Source of the DNA: Eledone cirrhosa
Lineage: Eukaryota
Length of the DNA: 64,000 nt
Assembly: GCA_964016885.1 (NCBI GenBank)
Contig: OZ024741.1
Span: 242,916,001-242,980,000, forward strand
Direction: 5' to 3'
A program made the translations under genes and the position numbers. Shown here piece after piece: positions 4,301-45,800 of this stretch. Position 1 is the first letter of the stretch, and every line of letters starts with the position of its first letter. The notes under the pieces were generated by a model. That model saw only the letters and a list, made by a program, of their open reading frames with translations, did not search any database and was not told where the DNA came from.

Positions 4301-7300
4301 GGGTTAGGGTTAGGGTTAGGGTTAGGGCTAGGGCTAGGGTTAGGGTTAGGGTTAGGGTTAGGGTTAGGGTTAGGGTTAGGGTTAGGGTTGGGGTTAGGGT
4401 GAGGGTTAGGGCTAGGATTACGGTTGGCGTTAGGTTTGGCGTAAGGGTTAGGGTTAGTGTTAGGGTTAGGGTGAGGGTTAGGGTAGGGTTAGGGTTGCGT
4501 TAGGGTTAGCGTTAGGGTTGGCGTTAGGGTTAGCGCTAGGGTTGGCGTTAGGGTTAGGGTTAGGGTTAGGGTTAGGGTTAGGGTTAGGGTTACGGTTGGG
4601 GTTGGGGTTAGGGTTAGGGTTAGGGTTGGGGTTAGGGTTAGGGTTGGGGTTGGGGTTAGGGTTAGGGTTGGCGTTAGGGTTAGGGTTAGGGTTAGGGTTA
4701 GGGTTAGCGTTAGGGTTAGGATTAGGGTTAGGGTTAGGGTTGGCGTTAGGGTTAGCGTCAGGGTTGGCGTTAGGGTTAGGGATAGGGTTAGGGTTAGGTT
4801 TAGGGTTAGGTTTGGGGTTAGTGTTAGGGTTAGGGTTAGGGTTAGGGTTAGGGTTAGGGCTGGGGTTAGGGTTAGGGTTAGGGTTAGGGTTAGGGTTAGG
4901 GTTGGGTTAGGGTTAGGGTTAGGGTTAGGGTTAGGGTTAGCGTTAGTGTTAGGGTTAGGGTTAGGGTTAGGGTTGGGGGTGGGTTGAGGTTGGGGTGGGG
5001 TTGGGGCTAGGGTTAGGGTTAGTGTTAGGGTTAGGGTTAGGGTTAGGGTTAGGGTTGGGGTTGGGGTTAGGGTTAGGGTTGGGGTTAGGGTTAGTGTTAG
5101 GGTTAGGGTTAGGGTTAGGGTTGGGGTTAGGGTTAGGGTTAGCGTTAGGGTTAGGGTTACGGTTAGGGTTCGTGTTAGGGTTAGGGTTGGGGTTAGGTTT
5201 AGGGTTAGGGTTAGGGTTGGGGTTAGGGTTAGGGTTAGGGTTAGGGTTAGGGTTAGGGTTAGGGTTAGGGTTGGGGTTAGGGTTAGGGTTGGCGTTAGGG
5301 TTAGCGTCAGGGTTGGCGTTAGGTTTAGAGTTAGGGTTAGGGTTAGGGTTAGGGTTAGGGTTAGGGTTAGGGTTAGGGTTAGGGTTAGGGTTAGGATTGG
5401 GGTTGGGGTTGGGGTGGGGTTAGGGTTAGGTTTAGGGTTAGGGTTGGGGTTAGGGTTAGGGTTAGGTTTCGGGTTACTTTAGGGTTAGGGTTAGGGTTAG
5501 GGTTAGGGTTAGGATTGGGGTTGGGGTTGGGGTGGGGTTAGGGTTAGGGTCAGGGTTAGAGTTAGGGTTAGGGTTAGGGTTAGGTTTAGGGTTAGGGTTA
5601 GGGTTAGGGTTAGGGTTAGGGTTGGCGTTAGGGTGAGGGTTAGGGTTAGGATTACGGTTGGCGTTAGGTTTGGCGTTAGGGTTAGGGTTAGTGTTATGGT
5701 TAGGGTGAGGGTTAGGGCAGGGTTAGGGTTGGCGTTAGGGTTAGGGTTAGGGTTAGGGTTACGGTTACGGTTAGGTTAGGGTTAGGGTTAGGGTTAGGGT
5801 TAGAGTTGTTGTTAGGGTTAGGGTTAGGGTTAGGGTTAGGGTTAGGGTTAGGGTTAGGGTTAGGGTTAGGGTTGGGGTTAGGTTTAGGGTTAGGGTTAGG
5901 GTTGGGGTTAGGGTTAGGGTTAGGGTTAGGGTTAGGGTTAGGGTTAGGGTTAGGGTTAGGGTTAGGGTTGGGGTTAGGTTTAGGGTTAGGGTTAGGGTTG
6001 GGGTTAGGGTTAGGGTTAGGGTTAGGGTTAGGGTTAGGGTTAGGGTTAGGGTTGGGGTTAGGGTTAGGGTTGGCGTTAGGGTTAGCGTCAGGGTTGGCGT
6101 TAGGGTTAGGGTTAGTGTTAGGGTTAGGTTTAGGGTTAGGTTTGGGGTTAGTGTTAGGGTTAGGGTTAGGTTTAGGGTTAGGGTTAGGGTTGGGGTTAGG
6201 GTTAGTGTTAGGGTTAGGGTTAGGGTTAGGATTAGGGTTGGGTTAGGGTGAGGGTTAGGGTTAGGGTTAGCGTTAGGGTTAGAGTTAGGGTTAGGGTTAG
6301 GGATAGGGTTCGTGTTAGGGTTAGGGTTGGGGTTAGGTTTAGGGTTAGGGTTAGGGTTGGGGTTAGGGTTAGGGTTAGGATTAGGCTTAGGGTTCGGGTT
6401 AGGGTTAGGGTTAGGGTTAGGGTTGGGGTTAGGGTTAGGGTTGGCGTTAGGGTTAGCGTCAGATTTGGCGTTAGGGTTAGAGTTAGGGTTAGGGTTAGGG
6501 TTAGGGTTAGGGTTAGGATTGGGGTTGGGGTTGGAGTGGGGTTAGGGTTAGGGTTAGGGTTAGGGTTGGGGTTAGGGTTAGGGTTAGGTTTCGGGTTACT
6601 TTAGGGTTAGGGTTAGAGTTAGGGTTAGGGTTAGGTTTAGAGTTAGGGTTAGGGTCAGGGTTAGAGTTAGGGTTAGGGTTAGGGTTAGGGTTGGGGTTGG
6701 GGTTAGGGTTAGGGTTAGGGTTAGGGTTAGGGTTAGGGCTAGGGCTAGGGTTAGGGTTAGGGTTAGGGTTAGGGTTAGGGTTAGGGTTAGGGTTGGGGTT
6801 AGGGTGAGGGTTAGGGCTAGGATTACGGTTGGCGTTAGGTTTGGCGTTAGGGTTAGGGTTAGTGTTAGGGTTAGGGTGAGGGTTAGGGTAGGGTTAGGGT
6901 TGCGTTAGGGTTAGCGTTAGGGTTGGCGTTAGGGTTAGCGCTAGGGTTGGCGTTAGGGTTAGGGTTAGGGTTAGGGTTAGGGTTAGGGTTAGGGTTACGG
7001 TTGGGGTTGGGGTTAGGGTTAGGGTTAGGGTTGGGGTTAGGGTTAGGGTTGGGGTTGGGGTTAGGGTTAGGGTTGGCGTTAGGGTTAGGGTTAGGGTTAG
7101 GGTTAGGGTTAGCGTTAGGGTTAGGATTAGGGTTAGGGTTAGGGTTGGCGTTAGGGTTAGCGTCAGGGTTGGCGTTAGGGTTAGGGATAGGGTTAGGGTT
7201 AGGTTTAGGGTTAGGTTTGGGGTTAGTGTTAGGGTTAGGGTTAGGGTTAGGGTTAGGGTTAGGGCTGGGGTTAGGGTTAGGGTTAGGGTTAGGGTTAGGA

Positions 7301-45800: not shown

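What the first reader, a model, noticed from the sequence alone, without database searches (positions are those of the whole stretch)
5150..43450. ~14-kb block re-copied 20-24 kb downstream with near identity
Seen: rare variants recur in the same order (TTAGCA-TTAGGG-ATGGCG ~9044/~29180, TTATGG-TCAGGG 9563/29843, TTAGAA 10030/30310, TTAGCT 10927/31201). The copies differ mainly by plus or minus one TTAGGG unit and a few point changes (GTAGGG 7961 vs TTAGGG 28097; TTGGGG 8440 vs TTGTGG 28576; ATAGGG 15097 vs TTAGGG 36644). Inference: a recent large duplication, so the array grows in jumps of 10 kb or more.
Basis: partly seen in the sequence, partly recalled or inferred. Interest (0 to 1): 0.7.

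Follow-up and report, generated by a model that had tools for sequence, protein, structure and literature searches.

The report
Nested tandem duplications in telomeric satellite
A 64-kb stretch of degenerate telomere-type repeats holds a 14.7-kb block copied head-to-tail and then stretched by smaller copies inside it, likely ordinary satellite growth by out-of-register DNA repair rather than a new mechanism.

Summary
The whole window is a one-strand degenerate TTAGGG array (10,716 units, 61% canonical). The copied unit is 4794-19519 (14.73 kb). Copy 2 starts directly after it at 19520 and ends near 43464. The 20-24 kb offset is not the jump size: five later nested duplications (4.28, 1.65, 1.285, 0.65, 1.91 kb) stretched copy 2. 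The copies differ by 18 substituted units, 14 TTAGGG-run indels and 4 larger indels over 14.6 kb, so point changes are not the minority. Of ten resolvable duplications only this one exceeds 10 kb (median 2.8 kb; 39% of the bases gained). Four versions of some segments, stepwise nested mutations and short-overlap joins argue against a haplotype or assembly artefact, but no reads were examined. This matches known satellite turnover (Arabidopsis centromere indels up to 13.7 kb). One side observation: 2 of 10 junctions carry 56-79 bp of pure TTAGGG found in neither donor, possibly a telomerase footprint. The organism and chromosomal position are unknown. Verdict: real, largely ordinary, low to modest interest.

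The parts
1..64000 (+). Degenerate TTAGGG array filling the whole window: 10,716 units, 6,528 canonical, G-rich strand on +, no CCCTAA, no N, no non-telomeric insert
4794..19519 (+). Copy 1 of the 14.73-kb duplicated unit
19509..19524 (+). Head-to-tail junction of the 14.73-kb duplication; 16 bp of overlap, all canonical repeat, between end donor (about 43440-43470) and start donor (about 4780-4800)
19520..43464 (+). Copy 2 of the unit, stretched to about 23.9 kb by later nested duplications
16356..24385 (+). 4.28-kb tandem duplication across the copy 1/copy 2 junction (16356-20627 repeated as 20628-24385, with later deletions of 8 and 80 units); rival reading: remnant of a third 14.7-kb copy
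24040..27356 (+). 1.65-kb nested tandem duplication (junction about 25704; 7 bp overlap)
33183..35668 (+). 1.285-kb nested tandem duplication
34348..34485 (+). 23 pure TTAGGG units, the longest pure run in the window, at the 1.285-kb junction; donors supply at most 6 + 3 units, 79 bp match neither donor
37348..41177 (+). 0.65-kb duplication (with a 16-unit deletion) nested in a 1.909-kb tandem duplication
220..2200 (+). 0.996-kb tandem duplication outside the block
41394..48760 (+). 3.60-kb tandem duplication, inferred older than the 14.7-kb event (its second copy keeps a 10-unit segment lost from all three later copies)
46285..53830 (+). 4.04-kb tandem duplication
50249..50338 (+). 15 pure TTAGGG units at the 4.04-kb junction; donors supply 3 + 2 units, 56 bp match neither donor
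50935..62080 (+). 5.05-kb tandem duplication, its second copy enlarged by about 1.06 kb of compound nested copying at 58.5-59.5 kb

Best explanation
This is a head-to-tail tandem duplication of a 14.73-kb unit (4794-19519 copied to 19520-43464) in a degenerate TTAGGG satellite, likely made in the living genome by out-of-register recombinational repair of a broken replication fork or chromatid, and later stretched by five smaller duplications of the same kind. Shown: the geometry, the junctions, the nested order of several events, and that all ten resolved junctions keep strand and hexamer phase. Eight of the ten use only about 7-55 bp of mostly canonical overlap rather than the older kb-scale periodicity, so every event sets a new period. 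Inferred: a broken end re-anneals at a TTAGGG run upstream and replication restarts (break-induced replication or unequal sister exchange; the sequence cannot tell these apart). Between such events, conventional replication adds point changes (about 1.3/kb between the copies) and one-unit slippage in canonical runs. The array is likely heterochromatic interstitial or subterminal telomeric satellite that telomerase does not maintain. At an assumed 1e-8 to 6.5e-8 changes per base per generation the event would be about 10,000-65,000 generations old.
For: Sequence left of 4794 and right of 43464 is the ancestral context, while 19520 joins end to start: the end-of-unit motif continues normally at 43464 and in three paralogues (47030, 51110, 56160) but breaks at 19520 into the start-of-unit motif. 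The offsets climb stepwise 14,726 > 18,487 > 20,130 > 20,280 > 21,559 > 22,101 > 24,004, in line with the nested insertions. Mutations nest as a real history would: TTAGGG at 13154, TTAGAG at 34713, TTAGAA at 33428; TTGGCT at 16654/20932/38755, TTGGAT at 40664; TTGGTG shared by 25274 and 26923 only. Head and tail segments each exist in four versions. No single-base indel lies among the 36 differences between the copies. Overlaps at base level: 16, 7, 17, 22 and 43 bp at five junctions; up to 6, 9 and about 4 units at three more, read at unit level. Comparable periodicity-preserving tandem duplications are seen de novo in Arabidopsis CEN178 arrays: mean insertion 1,870 bp, and indels up to 13,695 bp in a natural lineage; BIR proposed (10.1101/2025.06.02.657473, passages read).
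Against: No read-level support: no reads were laid on the window, and no genome is held. Divergence of 0.13% is also what two alleles could show. In the 3-kb segment at 20640-23613, two run-length states group it with the end of copy 2 and none with the end of copy 1, which the simple junction-spanning 4.28-kb duplication does not predict. Two junctions carry pure TTAGGG that plain out-of-register joining does not supply. Crossovers in register with older kb-scale repeats would leave no new junction, so the short-overlap picture is biased towards visible events. The excess of canonical run length at junctions is weak: mean 4.8 vs 3.3 for random joins, P = 0.013 over 23 junction types, and this includes the 23-unit outlier.
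Confidence: 0.8

Rival explanations
1. Variant history within the same mechanism: the 14.7-kb unit was triplicated, and the middle copy then lost about 10.5 kb, leaving 19520-23613 as its remnant instead of a 4.28-kb duplication across the junction.
For: The 20640-23613 segment shares two run-length states with the end of copy 2 (at the sites matching 17144 and 18297; for the second, the older paralogue at 45005-47170 sides with copy 1) and none with copy 1.
Against: Only two sites, both run lengths, which mutate often (97 of 3,260 paralogous runs differ) and can recur. No substitution supports it. It needs one more large event.
Confidence: 0.3
2. Assembly artefact: two haplotypes, or overlapping reads, were concatenated.
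For: 0.13% divergence lies in the range of allelic difference; satellite arrays are error-prone to assemble; no reads or depth were examined.
Against: Head and tail segments occur in four versions each, more than a diploid's two alleles give. There are two separate end-to-start joins (19520, about 23632) and one start-to-end join (20628); the two measured ones have 16 bp and up to 9 units of overlap, too little for an overlap assembler (inference), and there is no N gap. The longest exact repeat is 1.8 kb, well under long-read length.
Confidence: 0.07
3. The copy arose by excision of a 14.7-kb circle (t-circle or eccDNA) followed by re-integration or one round of rolling-circle copying next to the original.
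For: It also gives head-to-tail direct repeats in hexamer phase; rolling-circle amplification is a listed mechanism for ITS amplification (PMC6410037, passages read).
Against: Rolling circles tend to give many equal copies (general knowledge); each of the ten periods here is present in two copies before the next event sets a new period, and all ten lie next to their donor.
Confidence: 0.1
4. One reading: a 14-kb block was copied non-adjacently, 20-24 kb downstream, as one jump.
For: Most of the alignment lies at offsets of 20.1-24.0 kb.
Against: The 6.2 kb between the end of copy 1 and the main diagonal is entirely made of copies of the unit's own head and tail, and the unit's start follows its end directly at 19520.
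Confidence: 0.03

Closest known systems
[quoted passage not shown]
   Same: Large blocks of telomere-like repeat that amplify; proposed mechanisms are unequal crossing-over, conversion, slippage and rolling circle (PMC6410037, passages). [quoted passage not shown]
   Different: Here the array is resolved at base level, with a readable order of ten duplications. Organism, chromosomal position and chromatin state are unknown, so membership is likely but not shown.
Periodicity-preserving tandem and complex tandem duplications in Arabidopsis CEN178 centromeres (10.1101/2025.06.02.657473)
   Same: Whole units added, inserts copied from adjacent units, mean insertion about 1.9 kb, indels up to 13.7 kb in a natural lineage, BIR proposed (passages).
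   Different: The monomer is 6 bp rather than 178 bp, so about 1-9 units of overlap suffice and no fixed higher-order period is kept. Pure-repeat filler at junctions was not in the passages read.
Degenerate and variant telomeric repeat arrays with higher-order repeats at Arabidopsis chromosome ends (PMC11406999)
   Same: Variant units copied in blocks; explained by slippage and unequal crossing over away from telomerase (passages).
   Different: The blocks described in those passages are of a few units repeated 5-8 times next to the canonical tract; here blocks are 100-2,450 units over at least 64 kb.
Arabidopsis interstitial telomeric repeat domains ITR-1R and ITR-4L (10.64898/2026.05.10.723265)
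   Same: Long interstitial telomeric domains (484 and 69 kb) with higher-order blocks and block duplications (parts 1-2 of 4 read).
   Different: Those are mosaics of telomeric and CEN178 sequence with transposons; this window is telomeric units only.
Telomerase-linked insertion of TTAGGG at double-strand breaks (short ITS; PMC7215372, passages; PMC2246262, search listing only; neotelomere assay 10.1101/2022.10.31.514589, passages)
   Same: Pure TTAGGG appears at a repaired join, in register with the break end; this bears only on the two filler junctions.
   Different: Those cases lie in unique DNA with an empty orthologous site and sometimes TERC-derived flanks. Here the surroundings are already telomeric, so slippage or template switching can mimic the result, and no TERC-like insert is present.

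Membership tests
Heterochromatic ITS / telomeric satellite | Extended block of telomere-like repeats, tens of kb or more | tested here: met
   All 64,000 bases parse into 10,716 TTAGGG-like units
Heterochromatic ITS / telomeric satellite | Degenerate, not kept uniform by telomerase | tested here: met
   61% canonical; longest pure run 23 units; canonical fraction 0.59-0.63 in all eight 8-kb bins
Heterochromatic ITS / telomeric satellite | Non-terminal or pericentromeric position | not testable with these tools
   The array runs off both window ends; no genome held
Heterochromatic ITS / telomeric satellite | Coincides with C-band heterochromatin | not testable with these tools
   Needs cytogenetics or chromatin data
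Telomerase-made terminal telomere tract | Long uniform canonical tract | tested here: not met
   No pure run longer than 138 bp in 64 kb
Fixed-period higher-order-repeat satellite (alpha-satellite type; definition recalled) | One multimeric unit repeated many times at a fixed period | tested here: not met
   Ten different periods from 0.65 to 14.7 kb, each made once
Periodicity-preserving tandem duplication (CEN178-type) | Whole repeat units added, phase kept at the join | tested here: met
   The 10 of 10 resolved junctions show only ordinary units in phase
Periodicity-preserving tandem duplication (CEN178-type) | Insert is a direct copy of the adjacent sequence | tested here: met
   Head-to-tail at 19520 and nine other junctions; no CCCTAA anywhere, so no inversion
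Periodicity-preserving tandem duplication (CEN178-type) | Seen arising de novo and dependent on homology-directed repair | not testable with these tools
   Needs pedigrees or mutant lines
Assembly false (haplotype) duplication | Exactly two allelic versions joined once | tested here: not met
   Four versions of head and tail segments; three internal joins
Assembly false (haplotype) duplication | Halved read depth and no spanning reads | not testable with these tools
   No reads were examined for this window
Telomerase-mediated repeat insertion at a break (filler junctions only) | Pure repeats present at the join and absent from the ancestral sites | tested here: met
   79 and 56 bp beyond both donors; in all other copies of the flanking motifs the runs are at most 6 or 3 (left) and 3 (right) units
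Telomerase-mediated repeat insertion at a break (filler junctions only) | TERC-derived flanking sequence (diagnostic when present) | tested here: not met
   No non-telomeric insert in the window
Telomerase-mediated repeat insertion at a break (filler junctions only) | Dependence on telomerase | not testable with these tools
   Needs TERT-deficient material

The most novel reading that the evidence does not exclude
Telomerase takes part in growing this satellite. When a fork breaks inside the array, the left fragment ends in a G-strand 3' end. Telomerase adds about 9-13 pure repeats, and the extended end re-invades 1-4 kb upstream and restarts replication, leaving a tandem duplication with a pure-TTAGGG footprint at its junction (34348, 50249). 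Abortive telomere healing would then be a route by which interstitial telomeric satellites expand and are re-seeded with canonical repeats.
Probability: 0.25. Interest if true: 0.6.

Novelty: new member of a known kind. Interest (0 to 1): 0.3.

Why it matters
The duplication itself is an expected product of satellite turnover and matters little alone. The array's value is as a record. Its variant units act as a barcode, so the size (0.65-14.7 kb), order and junction structure of ten expansion events can be read directly, which bears on the old question of how large interstitial telomeric blocks amplify. If the pure-TTAGGG fillers are telomerase products, they would link telomere healing to satellite expansion in a way that can be tested in telomerase-deficient lines.

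Tried and rejected
Own genome: none held, so flanks and chromosomal position are unknown. Sequencing-run search with 8000-14000: 24 runs from 15 studies, ten coded organisms plus bat and bird metagenomes, each holding 56-70% of the words. This is the unspecific result of low-complexity words and no evidence of origin. One 30-base variant motif gave 0 matches in metagenome contigs and 0 in viral contigs. Earlier scan findings: none. Apparent excess of reversions to TTAGGG (8 of 56 polarised events): rejected, since by eye about five are mis-polarised by majority rule. Copy asymmetry (7 copy-1-private vs 13 copy-2-private changes, polarised by hand): not significant, P = 0.26. An eleventh duplication (0.59 kb, 58.6-60 kb) was dropped from the junction count because its join is compound. 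Base-level anchors slipped for three junctions (0.996, 4.28, 0.65 kb); the negative overlaps printed there are artefacts, and these were re-read at unit level. The exact-match list broke long matches at frequent words; one search gives the true longest repeat. The background count '0 of 3,260 runs off by 4 or more units' hides one 5-unit change (11 vs 16 at 24383/26002), split by the median, so the Fisher P is not used; no run with paralogues differs by 9 or more. The automatic junction scan (23 types) missed the 50249 junction, which was found by hand. Ten paper searches listed no base-level description of an array with these variant units, nor of pure-repeat filler at satellite duplication junctions; most subscription papers are not in the library and no supplements were read. 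Cattle, chicken, zebra finch and horse/donkey T2T papers and one satellite review (passages only) described no matching array.

Full report
What the window is. All 64,000 bases are a degenerate telomeric array on one strand. They parse into 10,716 units, 6,528 of them TTAGGG, 10,403 six bases long, in 79 types led by TTGGGG, TTGGCG, TTAGCG and TTAGGT. There is no CCCTAA, no N and no non-telomeric insert. The canonical fraction is flat at 0.59-0.63 and the longest pure run is 23 units, so this is not a telomerase-made terminal tract. The organism could not be established: no genome is held, the run search was unspecific, and a variant motif found nothing in metagenome or viral contigs.

The observation. 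Of 17 unit types that occur exactly twice, 13 pair on the duplication diagonals. The longest exact repeat is 1,836 bp, against at most 24 units in shuffles and 56 in order-6 Markov simulations. The duplication is in the sequence.

The geometry needs correcting. 4896-5740 matches 19622-20466 at offset 14,726. At 19520 the motif that ends the unit breaks off and is followed by the motif that starts it at 4794. The same end motif continues in its ancestral way at 43464 and in three paralogues. This is the pattern of a tandem duplication, X-U-U-Y, with U = 4794-19519 and 16 bp of canonical overlap at the join. The offset then grows in steps (14,726; 18,487; 20,130; 20,280; 21,559; 22,101; 24,004), because copy 2 was stretched afterwards. 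The causes are a 4.28-kb duplication across the junction (less deletions of 8 and 80 units), duplications of 1.65, 1.285, 0.65 and 1.909 kb, and a 24-unit difference that reads best as a deletion in copy 1.

How the copies differ. A non-overlapping tiling aligns 2,428 units with 18 substituted units (19 bases, 1.3/kb), 14 canonical-run indels and 4 indels of 9-24 units. Point changes are therefore as common as one-unit indels. None of the 36 differences is a single-base indel, which suggests an accurate consensus (inference). At an assumed 1e-8 (recalled generic value) to 6.5e-8 (Arabidopsis centromeres) changes per base per generation, the event would date to about 10,000-65,000 generations ago: recent, but not de novo.

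Real or artefact. No reads were examined, so this rests on internal evidence. The unit's head and tail each exist in four versions with private changes. There are three internal joins. Mutations nest in the order of the duplications: 13154 TTAGGG, 34713 TTAGAG, 33428 TTAGAA; TTGGCT at three places and TTGGAT at 40664; TTGGTG in both 1.65-kb copies only. A concatenation of two haplotypes would not give this, although 0.13% divergence alone would fit alleles. I put the artefact at about 7%. Against the simplest history, the segment 20640-23613 shares two run-length states with the end of copy 2 and none with copy 1, so a triplication followed by a 10.5-kb deletion remains open.

Does the array grow in jumps of 10 kb or more? 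Ten resolvable tandem duplications measure 14.73, 5.05, 4.28, 4.04, 3.60, 1.909, 1.65, 1.285, 0.996 and 0.65 kb. They sum to 38.2 kb, with a median of 2.8 kb, and the largest gave 39%. An eleventh with a compound join was left out. 91% of the window lies in a near-identical match of 100 units or more. Growth is thus by a broad range of sizes in which this event is the largest. The window hides still larger ones.

Mechanism. All ten joins keep strand and hexamer phase. Eight have short overlaps: 7-43 bp at five and up to about 4-9 units at three. An automatic scan found 23 junction types, 21 of which fit within the donors' canonical runs. Random-join simulation fits best with 1-2 units of required identity, a weak result. 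The likely mechanism is out-of-register restart of a broken end at a TTAGGG run (break-induced replication or unequal sister exchange), with slippage and point mutation in between. The geometry is shown; the enzymology is inferred. Events in register with older kb-scale repeats would be invisible to this analysis.

Comparison with what is known. Large telomeric satellites and het-ITS, and their amplification by unequal exchange, conversion, slippage or rolling circles, are long known (PMC6410037; PMC9498494; passages read). Tandem duplications that keep the period have been seen de novo in Arabidopsis centromeres, with indels up to 13,695 bp in a natural lineage (10.1101/2025.06.02.657473, passages). 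Higher-order blocks occur in degenerate telomeric repeats (PMC11406999, passages) and in interstitial telomeric domains (10.64898/2026.05.10.723265, parts 1-2 of 4). The finding works like these. It is probably a het-ITS-type satellite, though position and chromatin could not be tested. It is not a fixed-period higher-order repeat.

The one unexpected detail. Two of ten junctions carry pure TTAGGG that neither donor holds: 23 units at 34348 (79 bp extra) and 15 units at 50249 (56 bp extra). These are the longest and third-longest pure runs in the window. All other copies of their flanking motifs have runs of at most 6 or 3 units on the left and 3 on the right. Ordinary run changes are 1-2 units, and the largest seen is 5. 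For a fork moving left to right, the broken end carries the G-strand 3' end, the substrate of telomerase (inference). Telomerase can add repeats at breaks (10.1101/2022.10.31.514589, passages) and has been implicated in ITS insertion (PMC7215372, passages). Slippage during restart or a template switch into a pure tract elsewhere would give the same letters, and n is 2. I give the telomerase reading 25%. Ten paper searches listed no report of it in a satellite; the library lacks most subscription papers and no supplements were read.

Verdict. Observation partly confirmed (real, but tandem and nested); interpretation partly supported. A new member of a known kind; interest 0.3.

Noticed in passing
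window 34348-34485 and 50249-50338: Pure TTAGGG filler of 79 and 56 bp beyond both donors at the junctions of the 1.285-kb and 4.04-kb duplications.
   Followed up: partly
window 49675-49820, 50369-50435, 58760-58880, 59345-59490: Further pure runs of 11-12 units at compound joins, one replacing a stretch that holds a variant unit in its paralogues; canonical patches cluster in these two regions.
   Followed up: no
window 26002-26097: Canonical run of 16 units against 11 in the sister copy at 24383, about 290 bp downstream of the 1.65-kb junction; the largest ordinary run change seen.
   Followed up: no
whole window: Among 54 polarised single-base changes G>T is commonest (15), then G>A (11) and G>C (7); transversions outnumber transitions 34 to 20. 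This would fit oxidative damage to G runs; polarity is wrong for a few.
   Followed up: partly
whole window: 1,082 CpGs (1,512 C in all), yet only 1 of 54 recent changes is a CpG transition; 0.6 expected without excess, 5.5 with a tenfold excess (P = 0.026). This hints at an unmethylated array or a host without CpG methylation.
   Followed up: partly
window 23614: The join of the 80-unit deletion carries TTAGTG where the left donor has ATAGGG, two changes away; it may be a short patch from another paralogue.
   Followed up: no
window 1200-8400 and 9400-16800: Older layers of duplication with periods of about 2.39 kb and 1.97-2.19 kb, up to 7.6 substituted units per kb, lie under the recent events.
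   Followed up: no
window 62017-64000: The last 2 kb has no match of 100 units or more in the window and holds several unique units; its partner may lie beyond the window edge.
   Followed up: no
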